A DNA stretch of 64,000 bases. It comes from Eledone cirrhosa (Eukaryota). Positions 11,801 to 56,985 of the stretch are shown here, in pieces (within the stretch, counting starts at the first letter, position 1; every line of letters begins with the position of its first letter). Position numbers and translations under genes: made by a program. Under the pieces are notes generated by a model. The model made no database searches. It was not told the origin of the DNA and saw only the letters and a list, made by a program, of their open reading frames with translations. The stretch is from NCBI GenBank assembly GCA_964016885.1, contig CAXHJY010000928.1, positions 248,001 to 312,000 on the forward strand, in the 5' to 3' direction.

Positions 11801-12170
11801 AGCAATTGTTTTTATTCAGGACTAGTCTGAGTTTAATGATTCTTGCGTTCACCCTGTTTACTGAGATTACCTTATCTACCCATTTGTCAACTAATAGTAT
11901 ACCTACACCACCCATCTCGTAATTTCCCACCCAGAAAAATTCATAGCACTGATTTTTGGCTACAAGCACTCTAGCGGACTCGCCTCTCCATCTAGTTTCT
12001 TGCACACAACATACATCAATTTCATTTCACTCTAACATCTCTACGTTTTCTCCTGCTCCTACTTTCATTGTGCTTACGTTGATAGTTCAAACTCAGAGTT
12101 TTAGGCATTTGCCATCACTCATGGGAGAGGTGGAATTTTTGTGGGGGAGTGTGTATCCTTCCTGTCTCTG
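8856..12170 (-). mobile_element. RTE-clade LINE (subfamily B), degraded, spanning APE, RT, PHD and tail
   Basis: ORFs 11751-12005 (QETRWRG), 11351-11767 (AGDFN, SQH), 10273-10521 (FVDLEKAFD), 9378-10070 and 9147-9356 (WYGHV, GRP); (GAT)n tail. Confidence 0.92.
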
Positions 12171-12290
12171 AAGTAAAGCTTTGAAAGGACGCTAGGTAAC
12201 TCGTGGATTTATATTCATTTATTTATTCGCGGTTGTTCCATTTATCCTCAGCTCATCCAAACATAACGGTAAACAAGAATACTTTAGTGC

Positions 12291-15200
12291 AGGGCGAGAA
12301 GGGCAGTAGTAGTAATGTCAGTGTTTGTTGGGGTTGGTAAGGGCTAGAAGGACAGTAGTAGAAATGGCAGAGTTTGTTGGGACTGGTAAGGGCTAGAAGG
12401 ACAGTAGTAGTAATGGCAGAGTTTGTTGGGGCTGGTAAGGGCTAGAAGGACAGTAGTAGAAATGTCAGTGTTTGTTGGGGTTGGTAAGGGCTAGAAGGAC
12501 AGTAGTAGTAATGTCAGTGTTTGTTGGGGTTGGTAAGGGCTAGAAGGACAGTAGTAGTAATGTCAGTGTTTGTTGGGATTGGTAAGGGCTAGAAGGACAG
12601 TAGTAGTAATGGCAGAGTTTGTTGGGGTTGGTAAGGGCTAGAAGGACAGTAGTAGTAATGGCAGAGTTTGTTGGGGTTGGTAAGGGCTAGAAGGACAGTA
12701 GTAGTAATGTCAGTGTTTGTTGGGGTTGGTAAGGGCTAGAAGGACAGTAGTAGAAATGGCAGTGTTTATTGGGGTTGGTAAGGGCTAGAAGGACAGTAGT
12801 AGTAATGTCAGTGTTTGTTGGGGTTGGTAAGGGCTAGAAGGACAGTAGTAGTAATGGCAGAGTTTGTTGGGGTTGGTAAGGGCTAGAAGGACAGTAGTAG
12901 AAATGGCAGAGTTTGTTGGGGTTGGTAAGGGCTAGAAGGACAGTAGTAGAAATGTCAGTGTTTGTTGGGGCTGGTAAGGTCTAGAAGGACAGTAGTAGTA
13001 ATGGCAGTGTTTGTTGGGGTTGGTAAGGGCTAGAAGGACAGTAGTAGAAATGTCAGTGTTTGTTGGGGCTGGTAAGGGCTAGAAGGACAGTAGTAGTAAT
13101 GTCAGTGTTTGTTGGGGTTGGTAAGGGCTAGAAGGACAGTAGTAGAAATGTCAGTGTTTGTTGGGGTTGGTAAGGGCTAGAAGGACAGTAGTAGTAATGT
13201 CAGTGTTTGTTGGGGATGGTAAGGGCTAGAAGGACAGTAGTAGTAATGGCAGAGTTTGTTGGGATTGGTAAGGGCTAGAAGGACAGTAGTAGTAATGGCA
13301 GTGTTTGTTGGGGTTGGTAAGGGCTAGAAGGACAGTAGTAGTAATGGCAGTGTTTGTTGGGGTTGGTAAGGGCTAGAAGGACAGTAGTAGAAATGGCAGA
13401 GTTTGTTGGGGTTGGTAAGGGCTAGAAGGACAGTAGTAGCAATGTCAGTGTTTGTTGGGGTTGGTAAGGGCTAGAAGGACAGTAGTAGAAATGTCAGTGT
13501 TTGTTGGGGTTGGTAAGGGCTAGAAGGACAGTAGTAGAAATGTCAGTGTTTGTTGGGGTTGGTAAGGGCTAGAAGGACAGTAGTAGTAATGTCAGTGTTT
13601 GTTGGGGATGGTAAGGGCTAGAAGGACAGTAGTAGTAATGTCAGTGTTTGTTGGGGTTGGTAAGGGCTAGAAGGACAGTAGTAGAAATGTCAGTGTTTGT
13701 TGGGGTTGGTAAGGGCTAGAAGGACAGTAGTAGTAATGTCAGTGTTTGTTGGGGCTGGTAAGGGCTAGAAGGACAGTAGTAGTAATGTCAGTGTTTGTTG
13801 GGGTTGGTAAGGGCTAGAAGGACAGTAGTAGAAATGTCAGTGTTTGTTGGGGTTGGTAAGGGCTAGAAGGACAGTAGTAGTAATGGCAGTGTTTGTTGGG
13901 GATGGTAAGGGCTAGAAGGACAGTAGTAGTAATGTCAGTGTTTGTTGGGGTTGGTAAGGGCTAGAAGGACAGTAGTAGTAATGTCAGTGTTTGTTGGGGT
14001 TGGTAAGGGCTAGAAGGACAGTAGTAGTAATGGCAGAGTTTGTTGGGACTGGTAAGGGCTAGAAGGACAGTAGTAGTAATGGCAGAGTTTGTTGGGACTG
14101 GTAAGGGCTAGAAGGACAGTAGTAGAAATGTCAGTGTTTGTTGGGGTTGGTAAGGGCTAGAAGGACAGTAGTAGTAATGTCAGTGTTTGTTGGGGTTGGT
14201 AAGGGCTAGAAGGACAGTAGTAGTAATGTCAGTGTTTGTTGGGGTTGGTAAGGGCTAGAAGGACAGTAGTAGTAATGGCAGAGTTTGTTGGGACTGGTAA
14301 GGGCTAGAAGGACAGTAGTAGTAATGGCAGAGTTTGTTGGGGTTGGTAAGGGCTAGAAGGACAGTAGTAGTAATGGCAGAGTTTGTTGGGACTGGTAAGG
14401 GCTAGAAGGACAGTAGTAGTAATGTCAGTGTTTGTTGGGGTTGGTAAGGGCTAGAAGGACAGTAGTAGAAATGGCAGTGTTTATTGGGGTTGGTAAGGGC
14501 TAGAAGGACAGTAGTAGTAATGTCAGTGTTTGTTGGGGTTGGTAAGGGCTAGAAGGACAGTAGTAGTAATGGCAGAGTTTGTTGGGGTTGGTAAGGGCTA
14601 GAAGGACAGTAGTAGAAATGGCAGAGTTTGTTGGGGTTGGTAAGGGCTAGAAGGACAGTAGTAGAAATGTCAGTGTTTGTTGGGGCTGGTAAGGTCTAGA
14701 AGGACAGTAGTAGTAATGGCAGTGTTTGTTGGGGTTGGTAAGGGCTAGAAGGACAGTAGTAGAAATGTCAGTGTTTGTTGGGGCTGGTAAGGGCTAGAAG
14801 GACAGTAGTAGTAATGTCAGTGTTTGTTGGGGTTGGTAAGGGCTAGAAGGACAGTAGTAGAAATGTCAGTGTTTGTTGGGGTTGGTAAGGGCTAGAAGGA
14901 CAGTAGTAGAAATGTCAGTGTTTGTTGGGGTTGGTAAGGGCTAGAAGGACAGTAGTAGAAATGGCAGAGTTTGTTGGGGCTGGTAAGGGCTAGAAGGACA
15001 GTAGTAGAAATGGCAGAGTTTGTTGGGGCTGGTAAGGGCTAGAAGGACAGTAGTAGAAATGGCAGAGTTTGTTGGGGCTGGTAAGGGCTAGAAGGAGAGT
15101 AGTAGTAATGGCAGAGTTTGTTGGGGCTGGTAAGGGCTAGAAGGACAGTAGTAGTAATGTCAGTGTTTGTTGGGGATGGTAAGGGCTAGAAGGACAGTAG

Positions 15201-18030
15201 TAGTAATGTCAGTGTTTGTTGGGGCTGGTAAGGGCTAGAAGGACAGTAGTAGTAATGGCAGAGTTTGTTGAGGCTGGTAAGGGCTAGAAGGACAGTAGTA
15301 GTAATGGCAGAGTTTGTTGGGGCTGGTAAGGGCTAGAAGGACAGTAGTAGCAATGGCAGTGTTTGTTGGGGCTGGTAAGGGCTAGAAGGACAGTAGTAGC
15401 AATGGCAGTGTTTGTTCGTGCTGTTAAGGGCTAGAAGAACAGTAGTAGCAATGGCAGAGTTTGTTGAGGCTGGTAAGGGCTAGAAGGACAGTAGTAGTAA
15501 TGGCAGAGTTTGTTGGGGTTGGTAAGGGCTAGAAGGGCAGTAGTAGTAATGTCAGTGTTTGTTGGGGTTGGTAAGGGCTAGAAGGAGAGTAGTAGTAATG
15601 GCAGAGTTTGTTGGGGTTGGTAAGGGCTAGAAGGACAGTAGTAGTAATGGCAGAGTTTGTTGGGGCTGGTAAGGCTAGAAGGTCAGAGGTAGTTATGGCA
15701 GAGTGTGATAGGGTTGTTAGGGTTAGAAGGACAGTAGTAATAATGGCAGAGTTTGTTGGGGTTGGTAAAGGCTAGAAGGACAGTAGTAGTAATGGCAGTT
15801 TGTTGGGGCTGGTAAAGGCTAGAAGGACAGTAGTAGTAATGGCAGTTTGTTGGGGCTGGTAAGGGCTAGAAGGACAGTAGTAGTAATGGCAGTTTGTTGG
15901 GGCTGGTAAAGGCTAGAAGGACAGTAGTAGTAATGGCAGTGTTTGTTGGGGCTGGTAAGGGCTAGAAGGACAGTAGTAGTAATGGCAGAGTGTGATAGGG
16001 CTGGTAAGGCTAGAAGGACAGTAGTAGTAATGGCAGAGTTTGTTGGGGCTGGTAAGGGCTAGAAGGATAGTAGTAATGGCAGAGTTTGTTGGGGCTGGTA
16101 AGGTCTAGGAGGACAGTAGTAGTAATGGCAGAGTTTGATGGGGCTGGTAAGGGCTAGAAGGACAGTAGTAGTAATGACAGAGTTTGTTGGGGATGGTAAG
16201 GGCTATAAGGACAGTAGTAGTAATGGCAGAGTTTGTTGGGGCTGGTAAGGCTAGAAGGACAGTAGTAGTAATGTCAGTGTTTGTTGGGGCTGGTAAGGTC
16301 TAGAAGGACAGTAGTAGTAATGGCAGAGTTTGTTGGGGCTGGTAAGGCTAGAAGGACAGTAGTAGTAATGGCAGAGTTTGTTGGGGCTGGTAAGGGCTAG
16401 AAGGACAGTAGTAGTAATGGCAGAGTTTGTTGGGGCTGGTAAGGCTAGAAGGACAGTAGTAGTGATGGCAGTGTTTGTTGGGGCTGGTAAGGGCTAGAAG
16501 GACAGTAGTAGTAATGGCAGAGTTTGTTGGGGCTGGTAAGGTCTAGAAGGACAGTAGTAGTAATGGCAGAGTTTGTTGGGGCTGGTAAGGGCTAGAAGGA
16601 CAGTAGTAGTAATGGCAGAGTTTATTGGGGTTGGTAAGGGCTCGAAGGACTGTAGTAGTAATTGCAGAGTTTGTTGGGGTTGGTAAGGGCTAGAAGGACA
16701 GTAGTAGTAATGTCAGAGTTTGTTGGGGCTGGTAAGGGCTAGAAGGACAGTAGTAGTAATGGCAGAGTTTATTGGGGTTGGTAAGGGCTCGAAGGACTGT
16801 AGTAGTAATTGCAGAGTTTGTTGGGGTTGGTAAGGGCTAGAAGGACAGTAGTAGTAATGGCAGAGGTTGTTGGAGCTGGTAAGGGCTAGAAGGACAGTAG
16901 TAGTAATGGCAGAGTTTGTTGGGGATGGTAAGGGCTAGAAGGACAGTAGTAGTAATGTCAGAGTTTGTTGGGGCTGGTAAGGGCTAGAAGGAGAGTAGTA
17001 GTAATGGCAGAGTTTGTTGGGGCTGGTAAGGGCTAGAAGGACAGTAGTAGTGATGGCAGAGTTTGTTGGGGATGGTAAGGGCTAGAAGGACAGTAGTAGT
17101 AATGGCAGAGTTTGTTGGGGATGGTAAGGGCTAGAGGGACAGTAGTAGTAATGGCAGAGGTTGTTAGAGCTGGTAAGGGCTAGAAGGACAGTAGTAGTAA
17201 TGGCAGAGTTTGTTGGGGATGGTAAGGGCTAGAGGGACAGTAGTAGTAATGGCAGAGGTTGTTAGAGCTGGTAAGGTCTAGAAGGACAGTAGTAGTAATG
17301 GCAGAGTTTGTTGGGGATTGTAAGGTCTAGAAGGGCAGTAGTAGTAATGGCAGAGTTTGTTGGGGTTGGTAAGGGCTAGAAGGACAGAGGTAGTAATGGC
17401 AGAGTTTGCTGGGGCTGGTAAGAGCTAGAAGGACAGTAGTAGTAATGACAGTTTGTTGGGGTTCGTAAGGGCTAGAAGGACAGTAGTAGTAATGGCAGAG
17501 TTTGTTGGGGCTGGTAAGGGCTAGAAGGAGAGTAGTAGTAATGGCAGTGTTTGTTGGGGCTGGTAAGGGCTAGAAGGACAGTAGTAGTAATGTCAGTGTT
17601 TGTTGGGGCTGGTAAGGGCTAGAAGGACAGTAGTAGTAATGGCAGAGTTTGCTGAGGCTGGTAAAGGCTAGAAGGGCAGTAGTGGTAGTAGTAGTAGTAA
17701 TGGCAGGGTTTGTTGGGGATGGTAAGGGCTAGAAGGACAGTAGTAGTAGTAGTTGTAGCAGTAATGGCAGAATTTGTTGGGGCTGGTAAGGGCTAGTAGG
17801 ACAGTAGTGGTAGTAGTAGTAATGGCAGGGTTTGTTGGGGATGGTAAGGGCTAGAAGGACAGTAGTGGTAGTAGTAGTAATGGCAGGGTTTGTTGGGGAT
17901 GGTAAGGGCTAGAAGGACAGTAGTAGTAGTAGTAGTAGTAGCAGTAATGGCAGAATTTGTTGGGGCTGGTAAGGGCTAGTAGGACAGTAGTGGTAGTAGT
18001 AGTAAGGGCAGGGTTTGTTGGGGCTTGTAA
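12291..18030. repeat. 49-bp tandem satellite, roughly 115 copies (GGTAAGGGCTAGAAGGACAGTAGTAGTAATGTCAGTGTTTGTTGGGGTT)
   Basis: Period measured from 12336 to 12385; homogeneous 5' half and more divergent 3' end with (GTA)n expansions. Confidence 0.97.
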
Positions 18031-31279: not shown

Positions 31280-32839
31280 TTGGTATTGAGGCTTTCATAT
31301 TTATTGTATATAAACATATTACATGTTTTCATATACATCCTTATTATGCTTAACGTTCTCTTAGTGCTACTGCCAATTAATTATAACCAGCCAAGTTTGC
31401 ACTATATGCAAATGAACATTTCCAGCCAATCTTTTCTATTTGTTATATGCAAATGAGCATTACCAGCAAATGTTTGATACACAAAATCTATATAGACTCC
31501 TCTTGTCTATTTTCATCTCAATATCAGTTGTCACTGATGAGAGATCAGCAAATCTTGAAACAGTTGTCTGGCATTCTCAACAGCGTAAGCACTCACATTT
31601 TCTACCCTTCCTTTTTTTTCTTAGAAACGCAATAATTTAAATTAGCATATATTCAAATTAGCAAATGTTTAAATTAGCAGATATTTAAATTAGTAGATCT
31701 TCAAATTAGCAGATTGTCAAGTTAGCATAACTTTTGATCATAACATAATAGAATCTGAATTTATTTTTATTTTTTCAGAAATTTTCTTTACTGTCTTGAA
31801 AAACCCAAATTTTGCACATTTTTCGACATAAAGTTTTACCCAATTTTCCCTTGTATGACAGTTTGTGTGTCTAGGGATGGGATCTGATAATACAATGACA
31901 ATCAACAGCTAAACTATTGTGTGTGTGTGAGGAAACACTTTAGCTTATCTCACCAGCAGTACTTCCAGTGGAATTTTAATCTCAGTTATTCAACTTCCAA
32001 CATATTATTATTATTATTATTATTATTTATTATTATTATTTTTTAAATTTTGTGTTTCTTTTACAAACACTCTTCAATCTTGCCTCATTCATCATCATCA
32101 TCATTTAACATCCTCTTTCCCTGCTAGCAAGTGTTGGACAGAGTCAGTAATGAAGTGGAGCTACTAACTTCCCAGACAGGCAGGTAGGTTTACATATGGT
32201 CCCACATACTACTAACTGCACTAGAGAGACTATCATGTCTTTGATACAACTGAAGAGTCCTCTTAACCTTTTGTTTGGCAACTATTGTTGTATGTACAGA
32301 GTGAATTGGGTTTGTTTATTGTGTAGATCACCAACACGAGGGAGGCTGTCATATTCTTAACGCAACAGAAGGGGGTCCTCCTGACCCTCTATTACTCTTT
32401 CTACTGTTGGATGACCTTCCTATCACCAACCACTTTACAAAGTGTACTGACTGTATTTTCTATGTAGATCACTAACTCTAGGTTGTCATGTCTTTGTCAC
32501 AACTGACGTGTTCTTTTGACCCTTTGTTGGGGAAGTTCTAGTACATGAAACATAATTCACATGTTCACATCTCTAAGATCAATATTAATGAAGACAATGA
32601 ATTATACGAGTATCAAAGATAAGCTGTGAAAGAGTTCATTGACTTATTGATCCAACAATAAAACTGAAAACTGGTTATTACAGCTGTTACTCATCCTAAA
32701 CTTGTTCCTATCAAATATAGTAGTGGGTGTATTTATCACTGCTACTAGGGAGGTTGCCTATGAACAGACCACCTGATCCTGTCTTTGGCAGGAGAAGAAA
32801 TTATGACTTCAGAATCGAAAGAGCTTAGAGTAAACTTGG

Positions 32840-38030: not shown

Positions 38031-38077
38031 ACTGTTAATCAACTTTTTCTTCTTTTCCTTTTTTCTTACACTGTTAG

Positions 38078-38465
<388 letters not shown>

Positions 38466-39847: not shown

Positions 39848-42800
39848 AGGAAGTAAGAGGGTGGTGGTAGTGATGACATCACACTAAGGTAGTAAGAGGG
39901 AGGTGGTAGTGATGACATCACACTAAGGAAGTAAGAGGGAGGTGGTAGTGATGACATCACACTAAGGTAGTAAGAGGGAGGTGGTAGTGATGACATCACA
40001 CTAAGGTAGTAAGAGGGAGGTGGTAGTGATGACATCACACTAAGGAAGTAAGAGGGAGGTGGTAGTGATGACATCACACTAAGGTAGTAAGAGGGAGGTG
40101 GTAGTGATGACATCACACTAAGGTAGTAAGAGGGAGGTGGTAGTGATGACATCACACTAAGGTAGTAAGAGGGAGGTGGTAGTGATGACATCACACTAAG
40201 GTAGTAAGAGGGAGGTGGTAGTGATGACATCACACTAAGGAAGTAAGAGGGAGGTGGTAGTGATGACATCACACTAAGGAAGTAAGAGGGAGGTGGTAGT
40301 GATGACATCACACTAAGGTAGTAAGAGGGAGGTGGTAGTGATGACATCACACTAAGGTAGTAAGAGGGAGGTGGTAGTGATGACATCACACTAAGGTAGT
40401 AAGAGGGAGGTGGTAGTGATGACATCACACTAAGGAAGTAAGAGGGAAGTGGTAGTGATGACATCACACTAAGGAAGTAAGAGGGAGGTGGTAGTGATGA
40501 CATCACACTAAGGTAGTAAGAGGGAAGTGGTAGTGATGACATCACACTAAGGTAGTAAGAGGGAGGTGGTAGTGATGACATCACACTAAGGAAGTAAGAG
40601 GGAGGTGGTAGTGATGACATCACACTAAGGAAGAGGGAGGTGGTAGTGATGAGATCACACTAAGGTAGTAAGAGGGAGGTGGTAGTGATGACATCACACT
40701 AAGGAAGTAAGAGGGAGGTGGTAGTGATGACATCACACTAAGGTAGTAAGAGGGAGGTGGTAGTGATGACATGACACTAAGGTAGTAAGAGGGAGGTGGT
40801 AGTGATGACATGACACTAAGGTAGTAAGAGGGAGGTGGTAGTGATGACATCACACTAAGGTAGTAAGAGGGAGGTGGTAGTGATGACATCACACTAAGGT
40901 AGTAAGAGGGAGGTGGTAGTGATGACATCACACTAAGGTAGTAAGAGGGAGGTGGTAGTGATGACATCACACTAAGGTAGTAAGAGGGAGGTGGTAGTGA
41001 TGACATCACACTAAGGAAGAGGGAGGTGATAGTGATGACATCACACTTAGGTAGTAAGAGGGAGGTGGTAGTGATGACATCACACTAAGGAAGTAAGAGG
41101 GAGGTGGTAGTGATGACATCACACTAAGGTAGAGGGAGGTGGTAGTGATGACATCACACTAAGGTAGAGGGAGGTGGTAGTGATGACATCACACTAAGGT
41201 AGTAAGAGGGAGGTGGTAGTGATGACATCACACTAAGGTAGAGGGAGGTGGTAGTGATGACATCACACTAAGGTAGTAAGAGGGAGGTGGTAGTGATAAC
41301 ATCACCCTAAGGTAGTAAGAGGGTGGTGGTAGTGATGACATCACACTAAGGAAGTAAGAGGGAGGTGGTAGTGATGACATCACACTAAGGAAGTAAGAGG
41401 GAGGTGGTAGTGATGACATGACACTAAGGTAGTAAGAGGGAGGTGGTAGTGATGACATCACACTAAGGTAGTAAGAGGGAGGTGGTAGTGATGACGTGAC
41501 ACTAAGGAAGTAAGAGGGAGGTGGTAGTGATGACATCACACTGAGGTAGTAAGAGGGAGGTGGTAGTGATGACATCACACTAAGGTAGTAAGAGGGAGGT
41601 GGTAGTGATGACATCACACTAAGGAAGTAAGAGGGAGGTGGTAGTGATGACATCACACTAAGGAAGTAAGAGGGAGGTGGTAGTGATGACATCACACTAA
41701 GGTAGAGGGAGGTGGTAGTGATGACATCACACTAAGGTAGTAAGAGGGAGGTGGTAGTGATGACATCACACTAAGATAGTAAGAGGGAGGTGGTAGTGAT
41801 GACATCACACTAAGGTAGTAAGAGGGAGGTGGTAGTGATGACATCACACTAAGGTAGTAAGAGGGAGGTGGTAGTGATGACATCACACTAAGGAAGTAAG
41901 AGGGAGGTGGTAGTGATGACATCACACTAAGGTAGAGGGAGGTGGTAGTGATGACATCACACTAAGGTAGTAAGAGGGAGGTGGTAGTGATGACATCACA
42001 CTAAGGTAGTAAGAGGGGGGTGGTAGTGATGACATCACACTAAGGTAGTAAGAGGGTGGTGGTAGTGATGACATCACACTAAGGTAGTAAGAGGGAGGTG
42101 GTAGTGATAACATCACACTAAGGTAGTAAGAGGGTGGTGGTAGTGATGACATCACACTAAGGAAGTAAGAGGGAGGTGGTAGTGATGACATCACACTAAG
42201 GTAGTAAGAGGGAGGTGGTAGTGATGACATCACACTAAGGAAGTAAGAGGGAGGTGGTAGTGATGACATCACACTAAGGTAGTAAGAGGGAGGTGGTAGT
42301 GATGACATCACACTAAGGTAGTAAGAGGGAGGTGGTAATGATGACATCACACTAAGGTAGAGGGAGGTGGTAGTGATGACATCACACTAAGGAAGTAAGA
42401 GGGAGGTGGTAGTGATGACATCACACTAAGGTAGTAAGAGGGAGGTGGTAGTGATGACATGACACTAAGGTAGTAAGAGGGAGGTGGTAGTGATGACATC
42501 ACACTAAGGTAGTAAGAGGGAGGTGGTAGTGATGACATCACACTAAGGTAGTAAGAGGGAGGTGCTAGTGATGACATCACACTAAGGTAGTAAGAGGGAG
42601 GTGGTAGTGATGACATGACACTAAGGTAGTAAGAGGGAGGTGGTAGTGATGACATCACACTAAGGAAGTAAGAGGGAGGTGGTAGTGATGACATCACACT
42701 AAGGTAGTAAGAGGGAGTTGATAGTGATGACATCACACTAACGTAGTAAGAGGGAGGTGGTAGTGATGACATCACACTAAGGAAGTAAGAGGGAGGTGGT

Positions 42801-45800
42801 AGTGATGACATCACACTAAGGTAGTAAGAGGGAGGTGGTAGTGATGACATCACACTAAGATAGTAAGAGGGAGGTGGTAGTGATGACATCACACTAAGGT
42901 AGTAAGAGGGAGGTGATAGTGATGACATCACACTAAGGTAGAGGGAGGTGGTAGTGATGACATCACACTAAGGAAGTAAGAGGGAGGTGGTAGTGATGAC
43001 ATCACACTAAGGTAGTAAGAGGGAGGTGATAGTGATGACATCACACTAAGGTAGTAAGAGGGAGGTGGTAGTGATGACATCACACTAAGGAAGTAAGAGG
43101 GAGGTGGTAGTGATGACATCACACTAAGGTAGTAAGAGGGAGGTGGTAGTTATGACATCACACTAAGGTAGTAAGAGGGAGGTGGTAGTGATGACATCAC
43201 ACTAAGGTAGTAAGAGGGAGGTGGTAGTGATGACATGACACTAAGGTAGAGGGAGGTGGTAGTGATGACATCACACTAAGGTAGAGGGAGGTGGTAGTGA
43301 TGACATCACACTAAGGAAGTAAGAGGGAGGTGGTAGTGATGACATCACACTAAGGTAGTAAGAGGGAGGTGGTAGTGATGACATGACACTAAGGTAGTAA
43401 GAGGGAGGTGGTAGTGATGACATCACACTAAGGTAGTAAGAGGGAGGTGGTAGTGATGACATCACACTAAGGTAGTAAGAGGGAGGTGGTAGTGATGACA
43501 TCACACTAAGGTAGAGGGAGGTGGTAGTGATGACATCACACTAAGGTAGAGGGAGGTGGTAGTGATGACATCACACTAAGGAAGTAAGAGGGAGGTGGTA
43601 GTGATGACATCACACTAAGGAAGTAAGAGGGAGGTGGTAGTGATGACATCACACTAAGGTAGTAAGAGGGAGGTGGTAGTGATGACATCACACTAAGGTA
43701 GTAAGAGGGAGGTGGTAGTGATGACATCACACTAAGGTAGTAAGAGGGAGGTGGTAGTGATGACATCACACTAAGGTAGAGGGAGGTGGTAGTGATGACA
43801 TCACACTAAGGTAGAGGGAGGTGGTACTGATGACATCACACTAAGGAAGTAAGAGGGAGGTGGTAGTGATGACATCACACTAAGGTAGTAAGAGGGAGGT
43901 GGTAGTGATGACATCACACTAAGGTAGTAAGAGGGAGGTGGTAGTGATGACATCACACTAAGGTAGTAAGAGGGAGGTGGTAGTGATGACATCACACTAA
44001 GGTAGAGGGAGGTGGTAGTGATGACATCACACTAAGGTAGAGGGAGGTGGTAGTGATGACATCACACTAAGGAAGTAAGAGGGAGGTGGTAGTGATGACA
44101 TCACACTAAGGTAGTAAGAGGGAGGTGGTAGTGATGACATCACACTAAGGTAGTAAGAGGGAGGTGGTAGTGATGACATCACACTAAGGTAGTAAGAGGG
44201 AGGTGGTAGTGATGACATCACACTAAGGTTGTAAGAGGGAGGTGGTAGTGATGACATCACACTAAGGTAGTAAGAGGGAGGTGGTAGTGATGACATCACA
44301 CTAAGGTAGTAAGAGGGAGGTGGTAGTGATGACATCACACTAAGGAAGTAAGAGGGAGGTGGTAGTGATGACATCACACTAAGGTAGAGGGAGGTGGTAG
44401 TGATGACATCACACTAAGGTAGAGGGAGGTGGTAGTGATGACATCACACTAAGATAGTAAGAGGGAGGTGGTAGTGATGACATCACACTAAGATAGTAAG
44501 AGGGAGGTGGTAGTGATGACATCACACTAAGGAAGTAAGAGGGAAGTGGTAGTGATGACATCACACTAAGGTAGTAAGAGGGAGGTGGTAGTGATGACAT
44601 CACACTAAGGTAGAGGGAGGTGGTAGTGATGACATCACACTAAGGAAGTAAGAGGGAGGTGGTAGTGATGACATCACACTAAGGTAGAGGGAGTTGGTAG
44701 TGATGACATCACACTAAGGTAGTAAGAGGGAGGTGGTAGTGATGACATCACACTAAGGTAGTAAGAGGGGGGTGGTAGTGATGACATCACACTAAGGTAG
44801 TAAGAGGGTGGTGGTAGTGATGACATCACACTAAGGTAGTAAGAGGGAGGTGGTAGTGATAACATCACACTAAGGTAGTAAGAGGGTGGTGGTAGTGATG
44901 ACATCACACTAAGGAAGTAAGAGGGAGGTGGTAGTGATGACATCACACTAAGGTAGTAAGAGGGAGGTGGTAGTGATGACATCACACTAAGGAAGTAAGA
45001 GGGAGGTGGTAGTGATGACATCACACTAAGGTAGTAAGAGGGAGGTGGTAGTGATGACATCACACTAAGGTAGTAAGAGGGAGGTGGTAATGATGACATC
45101 ACACTAAGGTAGAGGGAGGTGGTAGTGATGACATCACACTAAGGAAGTAAGAGGGAGGTGGTAGTGATGACATCACACTAAGGTAGTAAGAGGGAGGTGG
45201 TAGTGATGACATGACACTAAGGTAGTAAGAGGGAGGTGGTAGTGATGACATCACACTAAGGTAGTAAGAGGGAGGTGGTAGTGATGACATCACACTAAGG
45301 TAGTAAGAGGGAGGTGCTAGTGATGACATCACACTAAGGTAGTAAGAGGGAGGTGGTAGTGATGACATGACACTAAGGTAGTAAGAGGGAGGTGGTAGTG
45401 ATGACATCACACTAAGGAAGTAAGAGGGAGGTGGTAGTGATGACATCACACTAAGGTAGTAAGAGGGAGTTGATAGTGATGACATCACACTAACGTAGTA
45501 AGAGGGAGGTGGTAGTGATGACATCACACTAAGGAAGTAAGAGGGAGGTGGTAGTGATGACATCACACTAAGGTAGTAAGAGGGAGGTGGTAGTGATGAC
45601 ATCACACTAAGATAGTAAGAGGGAGGTGGTAGTGATGACATCACACTAAGGTAGTAAGAGGGAGGTGATAGTGATGACATCACACTAAGGTAGAGGGAGG
45701 TGGTAGTGATGACATCACACTAAGGAAGTAAGAGGGAGGTGGTAGTGATGACATCACACTAAGGTAGTAAGAGGGAGGTGATAGTGATGACATCACACTA

Positions 45801-48193
45801 AGGTAGTAAGAGGGAGGTGGTAGTGATGACATCACACTAAGGAAGTAAGAGGGAGGTGGTAGTGATGACATCACACTAAGGTAGTAAGAGGGAGGTGGTA
45901 GTTATGACATCACACTAAGGTAGTAAGAGGGAGGTGGTAGTGATGACATCACACTAAGGTAGTAAGAGGGAGGTGGTAGTGATGACATGACACTAAGGTA
46001 GAGGGAGGTGGTAGTGATGCCATCACACTAAGGTAGAGGGAGGTGGTAGTGATGACATCACACTAAGGAAGTAAGAGGGAGGTGGTAGTGATGACATCAC
46101 ACTAAGCTAGTAAGAGGGATGTGGTAGTGATGACATGACACTAAGGTAGTAAGAGGGAGGTGGTAGTGATGACATCACACTAAGGTAGTAAGAGGGAGGT
46201 GGTAGTGATGACATCACACTAAGGTAGTAAGAGGGAGGTGGTAGTGATGACATCACACTAAGGTAGAGGGAGGTGGTAGTGATGACATCACACTAAGGTA
46301 GAGGGAGGTGGTAGTGATGACATCACACTAAGGAAGTAAGAGGGAGGTGGTAGTGATGACATCACACTAAGGAAGTAAGAGGGAGGTGGTAGTGATGACA
46401 TCACACTAAGGTAGTAAGAGGGAGGTGGTAGTGATGACATCACACTAAGGTAGTAAGAGGGAGGTGGTAGTGATGACATCACACTAAGGTAGTAAGAGGG
46501 AGGTGGTAGTGATGACATCACACTAAGGTAGAGGGAGGTGGTAGTGATGACATCACACTAAGGTAGAGGGAGGTGGTAGTGATGACATCACACTAAGGAA
46601 GTAAGAGGGAGGTGGTAGTGATGACATCACACTAAGGTAGTAAGAGGGAGGTGGTAGTGATGACATCACACTAAGGTAGTAAGAGGGAGGTGGTAGTGAT
46701 GACATCACACTAAGGTAGTAAGAGGGAGGTGGTAGTGATGACATCACACTAAGGTAGAGGGAGGTGGTAGTGATGACATCACACTAAGGTAGAGGGAGGT
46801 GGTAGTGATGACATCACACTAAGGAAGTAAGAGGGAGGTGGTAGTGATGACATCACACTAAGGTAGTAAGAGGGAGGTGATAGTGATGACATCACACTAA
46901 GGTAGTAAGAGGGAGGTGGTAGTGATGACATCACACTAAGGTAGTAAGAGGGAGGTGGTAGTGATGACATCACACTAAGGTTGTAAGAGGGAGGTGGTAG
47001 TGATGACATCACACTAAGGTAGTAAGAGGGAGGTGGTAGTGATGACATCACACTAAGGTAGTAAGAGGGAGGTGGTAGTGATGACATCACACTAAGGAAG
47101 TAAGAGGGAGGTGGTAGTGATGACATCACACTAAGGTAGAGGGAGGTGGTAGTGATGACATCACACTAAGGTAGAGGGAGGTGGTAGTGATGACATCACA
47201 CTAAGATAGTAAGAGGGAGGTGGTAGTGATGACATCACACTAAGATAGTAAGAGGGAGGTGGTAGTGATGACATCACACTAAGGAAGTAAGAGGGAAGTG
47301 GTAGTGATGACATCACACTAAGGTAGTAAGAGGGAGGTGGTAGTGATGACATCACACTAAGGTAGAGGGAGGTGGTAGTGATGACATCACACTAAGGTAG
47401 AGGGAGGTGGTAGTGATGACATCACACTAAGATAGTAAGAGGGAGGTGGTAGTGATGACATCACACTAAGGTAGTAAGAGGGAGGTGGTAGTGATGACAT
47501 CACACTAAGGAAGTAAGAGGGAAGTGGTAGTGATGACATCACACTAAGGTAGTAAGAGGGAGGTGGTCGTGATGACATCACACTAAGGTTGTAAGAGGGA
47601 GGTGGTAGTGATGACATCACACTAAGGTAGTAAGAGGGAGGTGGTAGTGATGACATCACACTAAGGTAGTAAGAGGGAGGTGGTAGTGATGACATGACAC
47701 TAAGGTAGTAAGGGGGAGGTGGTAGTGATGACATCACACTAAGGAAGTAAGAGGGAGGTGGTAGTGATGACATCACACTAAGGTAGAGGGAGGTGGTAGT
47801 GATGACATCACACTAAGGTAGAGGGAGGTGGTAGTGATGACATCACACTAAGGTAGTAAGAGGGAGGTGGTAGTGATGACATCACACTAAGGTAGTAAGA
47901 GGGAGGTGGTAGTGATGACATCACACTAAGGAAGTAAGAGAGAGGTGGTAGTGATGACATCACACTAAGGTAGAGGGAGGTGGTAGTGATGACATCACAC
48001 TAAGGTAGAGGGAGGTGGTAGTGATGACATCACACTAAGGTAGTAAGAGGGAGGTGGTAGTGATGACATCACACTAAGGTAGTAAGAGGGAGGTGGTAGT
48101 GATGACATCACACTAAGGTAGTAAGAGGGAGGTGGTAGTGATGACATCACACTAAGGTAGTAAGAGGGAGGTGGTAGTGATGACATCACACTA
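39848..48193. repeat. 39-bp tandem satellite, roughly 215 copies (CACTAAGGTAGTAAGAGGGAGGTGGTAGTGATGACATCA), with 35-bp deletion variants
   Basis: Directly visible; the 13-aa period in the antisense ORFs equals 39 bp. Confidence 0.97.
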
Positions 48194-48286
48194 CTGTTGT
48201 TTGCCTCACTCAACCATAATAACGCTATTTTCTCCCTCAGACCAAATATTTTCAAGTGTTTATCAGATTTCTTTCAAACAGGAAAT

Positions 48287-49618
48287 GTAGTAGCAATAGT
48301 AGTATTGGTGGTAGTGGTAGTGGTGGTAGTAGCAATAGTGGTGGTAGTAGCAATAGTAGTAGTGGTGGTAGTTGTAATGGTGGTAGTAGCAATAGTAGTA
48401 GTGGTGGTAGTGGTGGTAGTAGCAATAGTAGTAGTGGTGGTAGTGGTAGTAGTAGCAATAGTAGTGGTAGTGGTAGTGGTGGTAGTAGCAATAGTAGTGG
48501 TAGTGGTGGTAGTAGCAATAGTAGTAGTGGTGGTAGTTGTAGTGGTGGTGTTAGCAATAGTAGTAGTGGTGGTAGTGGTAGTGGAGGTAGTAGCAATAGT
48601 AGTGGTAGTGGCAGTGGTGGTAGTAGCAATAGTAGTAGTGGTGGTAGTAGCAATAGTAGTAGTGGTGGTAGTGGTAGTGATGGTAGTAGCAATAGTAGTA
48701 GTGGTGGTAGTGGTGGTAGTAGCAATAGTGGTAGTGGTGGTAGTGGTAGTGGTGATAGTAGCAATAGTAGTAGTGGTGGTAGTAGCAATAGTAGTAGTGG
48801 TGGTAGTGGTAGGGGTGGTAGTAGCAATAGTAGTAGTGGTGGTAGTGGTAGTGATGGTAGTAGCAATAGTAGTAGTGGTAGTGGTGATAGTAGCAATAGT
48901 AGTAGTGGTGGTAGTAGTAATAGTAGTAGTGGTGGTAGTAGCAATAGTAGTAGTCGTGGTAGTAGCAATAGTAGTAGTGTTGGCAGTAGCAATAGTAGTA
49001 GTGGTGGTAGTAGCAATAGTAGTAGTGGTGGTAGTAGCAATAATAGTAGTAGTGGTAGTGATGGTAGTAGCAATAGTAGTAGTTGTGGTAGTGGTAGTAG
49101 TGGTAGTGGTGGTAATAGCAATAGTAGTAGTGGTGGTAGTAGCAATAGTAGTAGTGGTGGTAGTAGCAATAGTAGTAGTGGTGGTAGTGGTGGTAGTAGT
49201 AGTGGTGGTAGTAGCAATAGTGGTGGTAGTAGCAATAGTAGTAGTGGTGGTAGTGCTAGTGGTGGTAGTAGCAATAGTAGTAGTGGTGGTAGTAGCAATA
49301 GTAGTAGTGCTGGTAGTAGCAATAGTAGTAGTGGTAGTGGTGGTAGTAGCAATAGTAGTAGTGGTGGTAGTGGTGGTAGTAGTAGTGGTGGTAGTTGTGG
49401 TGGTGGTAGTAGTGGTGGTAGTAGCAATAGTAGTAGTGGTGGTAGTAGCAATAGTAGTAGTGGTGGTAGTGCTAGTGGTGGTAGTAACAATAGTAGTAGT
49501 GGTGGTAGTAGTAGAAGTGGTAGTGGTGGTGGTAGTAGTAGTGGTGGCGGTGGTGGTAGTAGTAGTGGCGGTGTTGGTAGTAGTAGTAGTACTAGAGGTA
49601 GTGGTAGTAGTGGTTAGT
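48287..49618. repeat. (GTA/GTG)n trinucleotide-type low-complexity tract punctuated by AGCAAT
   Basis: Directly visible; the poly-Val and poly-Ser/Gly ORFs are artefacts. Confidence 0.95.
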
Positions 49619-49644
49619 AAATAATTTCTTTAACAATAATAATG

Positions 49645-52174
49645 CTTTCTTCATTAACTAACCACAAGGGTTTACATAAAGTAGACATTAAGGACAGTAC
49701 AGGACAATACAGGGCGGTACAAATGGGCATTTCTGCGTGTAAAAAAAACAAAAACAGAGGATGTAACAAAAAAAATAACAATGAAAAATTCCCCAATACG
49801 GGGGAGACTTCCGAGGGCCATCGTGGAGAAAGCCCATTAAAAAAAGCCACAGTGACCCTGACCACCAGGGCAAGTGCCCTCTCCCAGTTTTCCACCTTTA
49901 ATTTACAGACACATACTCAAAGTAGGCCCATTCACTCGGGCCATTCTTGCTTCTCTCACCCATCTTTCAACAAAATGCTGGGAATAGAGCACTTCCCTCT
50001 CTACCCTGATTTTCCTTTTCAAATGAAATTTGAAAAAGTCAATCAGGGCATCACCGAAGAGGTAAGTGCTCGTCTTCAGCCCTTTCAAACGTGTCCACCA
50101 TATTATCTCTTTCGCTATGGCCACCAGACAGATAAAAACTGCCTGCCCTTCCCGGCTAAAGGAAGAGGGCGGGGCAATCCTCACGATGGACTCAGCTGAT
50201 AGCCGATCCGTCCTACACGCGACAGCAGGTGTTTGACATAAACCCACAAGTCAGCAATGCTCGGACGCTGGACGAGTGCGCGCATCTCGGACATGCCCGG
50301 CTGACGGCACCTCCATGCCTGTAGAGTTTATCCCGAACTGGCAAAGCTCCTCGGTAGCACGGCCAGGCCAGGGATTTCTGGAAGTTGTCCATAGACCCCG
50401 GCCCGAAAGTTCTTCCGAAGAGATTGGCTAGTTGATTTTCGTCGACGCCTAGAGTTTCCCCAAGTACGTCGTCGCTCTTCCCCTCTACTAATCCTCTATG
50501 GAACGCCGAGGTGGAGTTTCCACCGATCACATTGCCCGATTGGTCGAGGGCTGTGAGCGCCTGAAGACATTCCAGTCTCCAAGCGCTCCTTCTCGGTCTT
50601 CGCTTGACCCAGGACTGAAGCTCCGTCAAGGAGACAAGCTGGGCAAAGACGCGTCAAGCAAACGACGACCATACCTGATCACCGTCGAGGAAGAGGTGGA
50701 GATGTCGTAGCCTGAGCGCATGTCTGCGCATCATCAGCCATGGCATGTCCAGCCCTCCATGTAGCGGGTGTTGACAGCAGACGGACCGCCTGGCCATCGG
50801 AGCGCGTCCCTTCCACAATAAGCGAAAGAGCAAACGCTCCAGTGCACTCAGGCGAGGCTTAGGACAAGGCACGATGGTCAGCCGGTAGTAGATGACGGAC
50901 GCGATGTACGCGTTAGCCACCTCCGCTCGACCTTTCAGAGATAGCTTCCTCTCCGCCCATTTCTGGGTGAGAGAAGCCACCCTGCTCGTCACCTCGTCCC
51001 AGTTTTTGTTCGTCTGGAGGTCTGGACAGAACCAAACCCCTAGCAATTTAACCGGTCCGTCAATCCAGCGCCCGACGACGCTGTGGACGGCATGGACCTG
51101 CCTCTCCAGGTGCCGAGCTGCAGGCCCACTGACTTTTCCTGGTTGATCATTGCTCCTGTCACCGCTTCGTATTCTCTTAGTGTAGTGCCGATCGCCTCGA
51201 TGTGTTTGGCGTTCGACACCACTACGGTGACATCGTCCGCATATGCTGACACGGATCTTCCGCATCCTAGTTCGCGCGGGACTCCCCTCAACGTCTCCAG
51301 TTTGTGCAGTAATGGCTCGAGAGTCAATACGTACAAGAGGGACGAGAGGGGATATCCTTGGCGGACCGAGCGCATGATGTTGAACGGTTCCGAAAGGTGA
51401 CCGTTCACTCTCACCACAGAGCAGATGTCGCTGTGCATGGCAGCGATCCAGCCTCTGAAGACGGGCCCAAAGCCAGCCGCCCTCAGGACTGCCGCCAGAT
51501 ACCGATGGTCGACCCTATCGAAAGCTTTCGACTGATCTAAATTGATCAAGGACCCACCCGTGCCAGGTTCCATAGCTACCCTCTCCACGATGTATTGCAG
51601 GAGGTGGAGGTTGTCGTGGATGGATCTGTCGGGAATGGCGCATGTCTGCGCCTCTCCCACTAGACCACCATCGACAAGCCCCAACCTCTTTGCTAGCACC
51701 TTGGCCAAAATCTTGAACTCTGTGTTTAGTAGAGTTATGGGCCTGAAATTATCTATGTTATCCCCATTGTTCGGATCCTTTCTCAGCAGTGCCACAGCTC
51801 CTCGGCTCACAGAGCTGGGAATTCTCCCGTTCTGTTGCCAGTTGCAGTAGACGTCCGCGAAGAGGCCTCCGAACAAGTCTGGCATTTGTACGTAAATTTC
51901 ATAGGGCAGACCATCCAAACCAGGCGATTTACCCCTTGTGCAGCCAGTCATTGCCTCCCGTACTTCAGCGGCTGTTATCGGCTTTTCGCAACACTCTGCC
52001 TCAGTGGCCGTGAGCTGCGGCAGTCCGTCGAGGTAGACACTAAAGTCCATTCCTCGATCCGGCCCGCCGCTGCCCCCGAACAGCTGTGCGAAGTGTCGCT
52101 GAAAATCTTCACACATTTTCCCGGGATCGAGTAGCATGCGCCCGTCGTGGTCCACCAAAGACCGGATCGTGGCT
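49645..52174 (-). mobile_element. 5'-truncated L1/Tx1-clade LINE with 20-bp flanking direct repeat
   Basis: ORF 51040-52158 (KSPGLDG, NFRPITLLN, LDQSKAFDRV, VRQG-PLS, AYADD), downstream RKLSLKGR, GGLDMP and CPRC; TTTCTTTAACAATAATAATG at 49625-49644 and 52175-52194. Confidence 0.92.
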
Positions 52175-54830: not shown

Positions 54831-55145
54831 ATCATCATCATCACCGTTTTACGTCTGTTCTTCCACGCTAGCATGGGTTAGACGGGTTGTCCTGTTGCGG
54901 ACAGTGTGCGGTCAGCTGACCTTCTCTTGCTCATATGGAAACTGATACTGGCTTGATTTCTACAGCTGGATGCCCTTCCTAACACCAACCTCATTTACAG
55001 TCAGTGCTGGGTGCTTTTTTGCTGTGGCACCTCTACGACCACTTTGCAGTGGAATGATAGGGACCCCAGTCCCTATCATCTCATTTCTACAGCTGAGTAA
55101 ACTGGAGCAATGTGAAATAAAGTGTCTTGCTCAAGGAAACAACAC
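54831..55145 (-). mobile_element. 5'-truncated CORE-SINE with RTE subfamily-B-type tail
   Basis: CORE segment is nearly identical to 55413-55745, but the 3' ~110 nt match the RTE-B tail. Confidence 0.85.
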
Positions 55146-55256
55146 ACATATATATATATATACTACATATTAACATTTTTAGTTATCCATCGATTTATAC
55201 ATTACATTCCATATACTGAAGGCTTCCTAACAAGTGTATATATTTCACTTTAGTCT

Positions 55257-55746
<490 letters not shown>

Positions 55747-55796
55747 ATAATATTAATTCAAAATATTAACAAAATAGACATTCTTGTGATCAAGTA

Positions 55797-55863
55797 TATT
55801 TTATTATACATATTTCAGAGGTACTGAGCTATCTTCAACAGTACGTCCTCGTCAGATAAAATA
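55797..55863 (-). ncRNA. Type-I minimal hammerhead ribozyme (CUGACGA core)
   Basis: Reverse strand: TATTTTAT-CTGACGA-GGACGTACTG..CAGTACCTCT-GAAA-TATGT-ATA-ATAAAATA. Confidence 0.75.
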
Positions 55864-55965
55864 AGATGATGCATGACATACCCTGACATGGTAGATGATT
55901 AAGATTCAGTCATGGTAGTCTGAATCTTAACCATCTACCATGTCAGGGTATGTCATGCATCATCT

Positions 55966-56032
55966 TATTTTATCTGATGAGGACGTACTGTTGAAGATAG
56001 CTCAGTACCTCTGAAATATGTATAATAAAATA
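55966..56032 (+). ncRNA. Type-I minimal hammerhead ribozyme (CUGAUGA core)
   Basis: Stem I TATTTTAT/ATAAAATA, core CTGATGA...GAAA, stem II GTACTG/CAGTAC, self-complementary stem III ATATGTAT, AUA cleavage triplet. Confidence 0.78.
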
Positions 56033-56170
56033 TACTTGATCACAAGAATGTCTATTTTTGTTGATATTTTGAATTAATATTAATAACTCTGGAAAACCAT
56101 TTACCTTGAGTGCTTCCAATCTATTGTAAAACTCATTCTTTGATTTATTCATTGAACCTTGTTTAACCTT

Positions 56171-56201
<31 letters not shown>

Positions 56202-56249
56202 CATCATCATCATCGTCTAACATCTATCTTCCACGCTAGCATGGGTTAC

Positions 56250-56985
56250 TCCCGTCCAACCCACATCGCTTGCCAACTACGTCACCACATTGCAAGACGC
56301 CAACATAAGCTTCTCCACACACTGGGATATTGTCAGTAGGGCTGCACCCTACAACTTCAGGGGGAAATGCCAGCTCTGCCTCATGGAGCTGTACTACATC
56401 ATAAGAACACCCCACAAGCTCATAAACAGCCGAGTAGAATCAGTTATTAATTGTAAACACCGGGTACAGGCGTCGTATTTTGCCTGGGAGTCGACTGTGA
56501 CATGAAAACTACGAACTGGGTCCTCCTGCCCGAACAACACCACCCCGGTGGGCAGGCTGTATGAACAAACATATGTGAACCTAATGTACACCGCAGACCA
56601 TACTCGAACAAACATTAGTGAAGCAACATCCACTAAATAATAAATGGACACTCCAGACCCGACCTGTACTGGCACTAGTGAAATAACACACATAATATAA
56701 AGATGCTAAACACCAGCATATGAACAGGCATTAAAATCCACATGGGACTGATTGCTTGAACACCGGCCAGAGTTACTCCCCCTGCTCTGTGATAATATAA
56801 ACTCATGCACAGAGAGGAAAATGAATGATGTTAATTTAACCGTAAATTCTCTCCTGGGTACTATATTGAACATTATTTTGCTTTCCATGCCCTGGATAAG
56901 CCCGCTCAGGGCGAAACGTATGTAGGTGCACAATTATATAAACATGTTTTAACGGTTTTAAACTCTTTGTATTTATTTCCTTTAT
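56250..56985 (+). mobile_element. Penelope-like element 3' fragment (C-terminal part of the GIY-YIG endonuclease, 3' UTR and pseudo-LTR)
   Basis: TSLANYV..LQD..I....W-IVSRA.PY....CQLCL.E.Y.I.....LINSR.E....CKHR is typical of the PLE endonuclease end; hammerhead-like motif at 56887-56930. Confidence 0.8.

What the first reader, a model, noticed from the sequence alone, without database searches (positions are those of the whole stretch)
55748..56082. Foldback cassette carrying a hammerhead ribozyme on each strand
Seen: a near-perfect 335-bp hairpin whose arms each contain a complete type-I hammerhead (8-bp stem I, CUGANGA/GAAA core, self-complementary stem III). One of the few differences between arms falls on N7 (CUGAUGA vs CUGACGA), the freely variable core position. 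Established: Penelope-like element pseudo-LTRs carry minimal hammerheads that cleave as dimers through a palindromic stem III. Inference: a young non-coding PLE terminus. A read-through (STIM intronic) transcript would contain the ribozyme and its own antisense arm, which could mask cleavage, so this may be a self-silenced ribozyme or a dsRNA source.
Basis: partly seen in the sequence, partly recalled or inferred. Interest (0 to 1): 0.75.

Follow-up and report, generated by a model that had tools for sequence, protein, structure and literature searches.

The report
Penelope retrotransposon head-to-head insertion stub
This hairpin with a self-cutting RNA motif on each strand is one of hundreds of very short insertions of a known kind of jumping gene (a Penelope-like retrotransposon), likely made when the start of its RNA was copied onto both cut DNA strands, so it is ordinary debris that records how these elements insert rather than a gene switch.

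Summary
In detail: a 335-bp hairpin with a type-I hammerhead on each arm, in a STIM intron. It is not a special cassette. The element runs 55750-56178 and is the terminus of an RT/endonuclease-coding Penelope-like element with Hydra-clade motifs; over 2,500 arms and at least 474 similar double-ribozyme hairpins occur in this genome. The layout (inverted pseudo-LTR, one-sided tail, TA target, ribozymes on opposite strands) is in print, and this scan has met it before on other DNA.

Sharp family-wide rules emerge. In 33 of 34 two-armed insertions one end has the tail and the other lacks it. 5' ends pile up at an initiator 31 nt below a TATA box (26 of 56) and not at the ribozyme cut (1). This window's left arm ends exactly on that initiator and the stub lacks the TATA box. 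Best reading: both target strands primed reverse transcription on uncleaved leader RNA at two start sites, and the short cDNAs were joined head to head (inferred). Folding predicts the ribozymes are masked in any read-through RNA, but as a by-product. Cleavage and transcription were not tested.

The parts
55750..55919 (-). Left arm: inverted, tail-less copy of the pseudo-LTR; its 5' end (55919) is the predicted transcription start A(+1), its 3' end (55750) is the family's short end
55797..55863 (-). Type-I hammerhead of the left arm (core C3 at 55855, N7 = C at 55851, predicted cut after 55805)
55919..55920 (.). Head-to-head junction of the two 5'-truncated copies, no spacer
55920..56080 (+). 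Right arm: pseudo-LTR copy starting 10 positions below the predicted transcription start
55966..56032 (+). Type-I hammerhead of the right arm (8-bp stem I, core at 55974, G-U at the base of stem II, 8-nt palindromic stem III 56016-56023, predicted cut after A56024)
56081..56178 (+). Tail (~95 nt), on one arm only; in full-length elements it continues into the 5' leader and ORF
56173..56199 (.). (TA)n target remnant at the long end; the left end abuts a short TA run after a (GAT)n repeat; no target-site duplication can be read
38075..38182 (+). Nearest upstream STIM exon found (EF-hand); with SOAR exons far downstream it places the element in a STIM intron

Best explanation
This is a very short insertion of an endonuclease-bearing Penelope-like retrotransposon with Hydra-clade motifs: two 5'-truncated copies of its ribozyme-containing terminus lie head to head at a TA-rich site, likely because each cut target strand primed reverse transcription on uncleaved leader RNA. 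Shown: family identity, two fixed 3' ends about 95 nt apart, one of each per insertion, and 5' ends piled at a TATA/initiator site. Inferred: one strand started at the short site and the other at the long site, both cDNAs ran through the intact ribozyme to or near the RNA's 5' end, and repair joined them. The ribozyme is under selection in the source elements; in this stub it is a promoterless passenger, predicted to be locked in the hairpin whichever strand is read.
For: The same terminus flanks RT and endonuclease frames in L035 and lies downstream of the endonuclease in 16 of 20 fetched ORF loci; in 10 of 20 a copy with tail also lies just upstream of the ORF. Motifs RWR, DKT, CxCX5C, CxxC-E-N-CxH and the (TA)n target fit the Hydra description. 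3' ends: 57 short, 41 long, 2 other of 100 arms. Pairs: 33 long+short, 1 long+long, 2 unclassifiable of 36 (p = 2e-9 on 34); 13 of 15 in a second set. 5' ends: 26 of 56 in a 14-nt window (p = 5e-13), 10 on one A, 1 near the ribozyme cut. TATAAA lies 31 nt above that A in 66 of 83 copies. In 11 of 33 pairs the long arm is tail only and shares no sequence with its partner. Poseidon protein extends both strands, starts at two internal sites bounding the tail and prefers uncleaved RNA in vitro (PMC11167929).
Against: No RNA data show the start site. The extra G before the start A (44 of the first 100 non-genomic junction bases) may be a cap copy but often fits template slippage. The Pfam RT match is weak (E = 0.0038, under cut-off) or absent, and no tree with reference Hydra elements was built. 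In vitro Poseidon showed no start-site difference between strands, so the one-of-each rule has no demonstrated cause. Exceptions exist (2 short+short and 1 long+long among 82 pairs). Arm-to-arm differences avoid the core and stem III (12 seen, 26.7 expected), which plain decay after insertion does not explain.
Confidence: 0.75

Rival explanations
1. Same element, but the second arm arises by fold-back: RT self-primes or switches onto its own nascent cDNA (or an antisense RNA), and the endonuclease trims the tail from one end.
For: Self-priming was proposed for palindromic junctions in rotifer Penelope elements (PMC3846280). Arms nearly always share sublineage alleles: 336 of 350 diagnostic sites against 0.635 for shuffled partners. 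Small fold-backs and duplications occur at junctions.
Against: 11 of 33 long+short pairs have no sequence in common, and either arm can be the longer. Three of 62 pairs differ at two or more diagnostic sites, and arm differences avoid the core.
Confidence: 0.14
2. A host-selected self-silenced ribozyme or dsRNA source that regulates STIM.
For: It lies in a STIM intron. The antisense arm comes first on either strand, and ribozyme stems have near-zero predicted probability in the hairpin. Both cores are intact; arm differences avoid the core family-wide.
Against: At least 474 similar hairpins follow from the insertion mechanism alone. Arm divergence here (3 of 160) lies within the family's range of 0-7.5%. 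192 of 221 sampled arms have an intact core, so intactness is unremarkable.
Confidence: 0.05
3. A non-autonomous foldback element (MITE-like or retrozyme-like) that moves as a fixed unit.
For: High copy number and many short hairpins of similar size.
Against: Junctions and arm lengths differ from copy to copy, from tens of bases to several kb. No same-strand tandem pair within 5 kb among the first 100 matches. The stub lacks the TATA box. The similar sizes follow from the shared run-off point.
Confidence: 0.04
4. An assembly artefact from fold-back reads.
For: Long palindromes can be artefacts; no public contig laid here spans the stretch.
Against: The arms differ at four places, only one has the tail, and both ends fall on family-wide end points.
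Confidence: 0.01

Closest known systems
EN+ Penelope-like insertions with inverted 5'-truncated pLTR and one-sided tail (PMC3846280, PMC8557442; passages read)
   Same: Head-to-head inverted copy, tail at one end, microsatellite target, hammerhead in the pLTR.
   Different: Both copies are cut down to the terminus. The tail is ~95 nt, not 30-40. The one-tail rule and the pile-up at the initiator are quantified here.
Hydra clade of PLEs (PMC8557442 section 11 and part 2 of the supplement)
   Same: DKT, CxCX5C linker, CxxC and CxH around E and N, (TA)n target, canonical hammerhead. Penelope-13_HM is listed with a hammerhead on both strands through an inverted copy.
   Different: RWR instead of RWK. 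About 4.8 kb with a long AT-rich 3' region (L086) against <3 kb. Its hammerhead differs from that listed for Hydra-1_Obim, so it is another family.
PLE hammerheads of Cervera and de la Pena 2014 (PMC4209133, parts 1-2 of 4 read)
   Same: Type I, long stem II, palindromic stem III predicted to need a dimer. Dual motifs 100-700 bp apart on opposite strands were reported in Schistosoma mansoni.
   Different: Stem I is 8 bp, stem III 8 nt, and the base of stem II is G-U, not the usual G-C.
Poseidon of Anolis carolinensis in vitro (PMC11167929, parts 1-2 of 4 read)
   Same: Two internal RT start sites bounding the tail, both strands extended, uncleaved RNA as template.
   Different: Different clade; no coupling of start site to strand was seen in vitro.
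Animal non-LTR retrozymes (bioRxiv 10.64898/2026.07.22.740005, part 1 of 5 read)
   Same: Type-I hammerhead repeats derived from PLE pLTRs.
   Different: Retrozymes are same-strand tandem units; this is an inverted pair.

Membership tests
EN+ Penelope-like element | Terminus linked to an ORF with RT and C-terminal GIY-YIG-type endonuclease | tested here: met
   L035 and 16 of 20 ORF loci; 750-aa frame in L085. RT and endonuclease read from motifs; Pfam RVT_1 weak, absent. 189 homologs, mostly ~700 aa.
EN+ Penelope-like element | pLTR in direct and inverted orientation, partial tandem before the ORF | tested here: met
   direct upstream copy in 10 of 20; inverted copies common.
EN+ Penelope-like element | Optional tail at one end | tested here: met
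   two end points; 33 of 34 pairs have one of each.
EN+ Penelope-like element | Type-I hammerhead in the pLTR | tested here: met
Hydra clade | DKT, RWK, CxCX5C linker, CxxC and CxH around E and N | tested here: met
   By inspection of L035, L085, L086, L088; RWR stands for RWK.
Hydra clade | (TA)n target | tested here: met
   Flanks listed.
Hydra clade | Generally short (<3 kb) | tested here: not met
   L086 spans about 4.8 kb from upstream to downstream terminus. The paper gives this as a tendency, not a rule.
Hydra clade | RT phylogeny with reference Hydra elements | not tested
   No reference sequences were aligned.
Active hammerhead ribozyme | Core, three stems and NUH site; core conserved over flanks | tested here: met
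   Core substitutions 10 against 23-29 expected in 127 arms. 42 of 43 sister-family motifs keep a self-complementary stem III, in four different sequences.
Active hammerhead ribozyme | Self-cleavage as monomer or dimer | not testable with these tools
   Monomer stem III is unfavourable; its self-duplex is only -2.2 kcal/mol; an unconstrained two-copy fold did not give the active dimer.
Non-LTR retrozyme | Same-strand tandem hammerhead units | tested here: not met
MITE-like foldback element | Fixed unit with matching termini and uniform internal structure | tested here: not met
   Unequal ends and variable junctions.

The most novel reading that the evidence does not exclude
Two leader RNAs are held in one dimeric particle, possibly through the palindromic stem III of their uncleaved hammerheads, and prime the two target strands in a coupled way, one at each start site. 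The ribozyme would then be kept as a pairing device as much as a cutter. This would account for the one-tail rule, the run-off at the transcription start with no pile-up at the cut site, and arm-to-arm differences that avoid the core and stem III.
Probability: 0.15. Interest if true: 0.7.

Novelty: new member of a known kind. Interest (0 to 1): 0.35.

Why it matters
The locus itself is ordinary debris. The family statistics bear on an open question: how Penelope-like elements form inverted ends with a one-sided tail, and what their hammerheads do. They give three predictions for the existing in vitro system: the RNA starts at a named A, templates are uncleaved, and the two target strands use different start sites. 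Hundreds of near-perfect hairpins are also potential dsRNA substrates where they fall in transcribed introns (inference, untested).

Tried and rejected
Rfam scan: no hammerhead model matched; miRNA hits are generic hairpin matches. Search for RNA runs: no RNA holder listed, which says nothing about expression. Contigs of four runs laid on the locus were swamped by other copies and none spanned it. A pattern for read-through past the long end found only two microsatellite-flanked copies; parents came from widely spaced inverted pairs. PDB gave nothing under E = 0.01; Pfam gave no useful hit for three ORF pieces. The mismatch list is out of register because of the indel and was replaced. The sister-family count included own-family mutants and was replaced. 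Piles of 5' ends at -239, -289 and -1363 are probably alignment limits of the reference copy and were ignored. Cleaved RNA as main template was rejected: 1 end near the cut, 2.6 expected. The extra G is not taken as proof of capping. Recurrent alleles among arm differences are only modestly enriched (42 against 29) and could be mutation hot spots. Four paper searches listed no paper whose title or abstract start reports a one-tail count, an initiator pile-up or this family; subscription papers (older Penelope work) and most of the 59-part supplement of PMC8557442 were not seen.

Full report
Coordinates. Positions q count along the element: q1 = window 55920, q105 = the predicted cut (56024), q161 = 56080, q256 = 56175.

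Observation. 55748-56082 folds into one hairpin (-265.3 kcal/mol, z = -43.6). The arms differ by three substitutions, one at N7, and one indel. A descriptor scan found a type-I hammerhead on each arm, with an 8-bp stem I, a stem II of 3+6 bp, and an 8-nt self-complementary stem III. Rfam has no matching hammerhead model at E<=1. STIM EF-hand exons lie upstream in the window and SOAR exons about 420 kb downstream on the same contig and strand; these were the only matches for both families in the genome, so the element is intronic. The 3.0-Gb genome looks like an octopus; that is my inference and was not checked.

It is a repeat terminus. The arm has 666 candidate matches (40 scored, 93-100% identity). 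Exact words occur 2,148 times (18-mer) and 2,573 times (21-mer). A pattern for two ribozyme words head to head 110-140 nt apart gives 474 sites; 11 of the 15 fetched belong to a sister subfamily 75-80% alike. The right arm continues for ~95 nt beyond the hairpin to a (TA)n run, so the element ends at 56178.

The parent. Widely spaced inverted pairs enclosed RT and endonuclease frames (L035, L037). Of 20 loci fetched around RT matches, 16 have the terminus downstream of the endonuclease, 14 of them ending at or near q161. Ten have a direct copy with tail just upstream of the ORF, and the tail runs on into the leader and ORF. The protein shows RWR, DKT, CxCX5C and CxxC-E-N-CxH, matching the Hydra clade description. 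Pfam support is weak. Homologs are mostly ~700-aa proteins; the few named ones come from marine invertebrates or metagenomes. No tree was built.

End rules. The sample is the loci around the first 100 matches on contig C1, chosen by a word at q110-130; arms under 88% identity were dropped. Of 100 arms, 57 end at the short site, 41 at the long site and 2 elsewhere. Of 36 head-to-head pairs lying within one fetched stretch, 33 are long+short, 1 long+long and 2 unclassifiable. Three pairs split over separate stretches were not counted; one of them looks short+short. Over all loci then held: 60 long+short, 2 short+short, 1 long+long, 19 with an unclassifiable end. A second set gave 13 of 15, three of them seen before. 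In 11 of the 33 pairs the long arm is tail only.

5' ends. Of 56 ends between q-41 and q110, 26 fall in q-14 to q-1 (5.2 expected, p = 5e-13), ten on the A at q-9; one falls near the ribozyme cut (2.6 expected). That A sits in a TCACT initiator-like motif with TATAAA 31 nt upstream in 66 of 83 copies; this spacing is typical of TATA/initiator promoters (my knowledge). 410 copies have a non-genomic base just before this A; of the first 100 listed I counted 44 G, 48 T and 8 A. The G may be a cap copy, but many cases fit slippage. Sister families also show copies cut at the equivalent A. The window's left arm ends exactly on this A (55919); the right arm starts at q1; neither holds the TATA box.

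Ribozyme. Core substitutions are 0.34-0.43 of the base-matched expectation in 127 arms. Changes shared by both arms, hence present in the source, avoid the ribozyme (12 against 46) and gather in loop II (45 against 10). In sister families 42 of 43 motifs keep a self-complementary stem III in four different sequences, while stem II differs and N7 varies (the search fixed stem I's 5' strand and the core, not stem III). In the full element, forcing the ribozyme stems costs about 100 kcal/mol, and the antisense arm is made first on either strand. Cleavage was not tested, and an unconstrained two-copy fold did not give the active dimer.

One or two templates. Arms of one insertion share sublineage alleles at 336 of 350 sites against 0.635 for shuffled partners; 3 of 62 pairs differ at two or more. 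Arm-to-arm differences avoid core and stem III (12 against 26.7 in 93 pairs; 2 against 8.3 in 37 pairs of the C1 sample) and are modestly enriched in alleles seen elsewhere (42 against 29). Neutral decay does not predict this. Two related functional templates would; context-dependent mutation or sampling could also. This is left open.

Mechanism. Shown: two end points, one of each per insertion, TA targets, pile-up at the initiator. From the literature: a Poseidon protein nicks and extends both strands, starts at two internal sites bounding the tail, and uses uncleaved RNA (PMC11167929). Inferred: here both strands were primed on leader RNA, one cDNA from q161 to the 5' end and one from q256 to q1, and were joined head to head. 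The double ribozyme and its masking are by-products.

What is known. Inverted truncated copies with a one-sided tail are standard for these elements (PMC3846280, PMC8557442; passages). Hammerhead pairs 100-700 bp apart on opposite strands were reported in 2014 (PMC4209133), and the Hydra element Penelope-13_HM is listed with one on each strand (supplement part 2). Earlier notes of this scan describe the same kind of stub in this and other genomes; my reading was recorded before I saw them. Four searches did not show the counts given here in print, but older subscription papers were out of reach.

Verdict. Real, explained, a new family member of a known kind; the interest lies in the family statistics. 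Interest 0.35.

Noticed in passing
window 56250-56983 (+): A separate Penelope-like remnant: endonuclease C-terminus (56221-56502) and a hammerhead of the U3-A8 type near 56890-56930 with a palindromic stem III. 606 candidate copies, some head to head; this copy has G where five relatives have T at core position 4.
   Followed up: partly
window 54937-55146 and 55482-55691: A second inverted repeat (210 nt, 96%) just upstream, enclosing microsatellites and a tRNA-like head at 55415-55472.
   Followed up: no
window 31529-31573 (+): Another type-I hammerhead-like motif with a 5-bp stem I and 8-nt palindromic stem III.
   Followed up: no
L002, L022, L028, L057, L115, L148 and others: Several sister families share stem I, core and stem III length but have unrelated stem II sequences, with like end points and tails.
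   Followed up: partly
L086:2577-2620 and 2667-2715; L056, L071: Both end points are followed after a few bases by a similar weak bulged hairpin (-3 to -7 kcal/mol), a candidate start signal for RT.
   Followed up: partly
L157, L167: Two insertions contain pieces that run from the tail or leader into the ORF start, i.e. ends at other sites than the two usual ones.
   Followed up: no
window 12001-18000 and 40001-50000: Long simple-repeat tracts with strong GC skew (0.54-0.69) in STIM introns.
   Followed up: no
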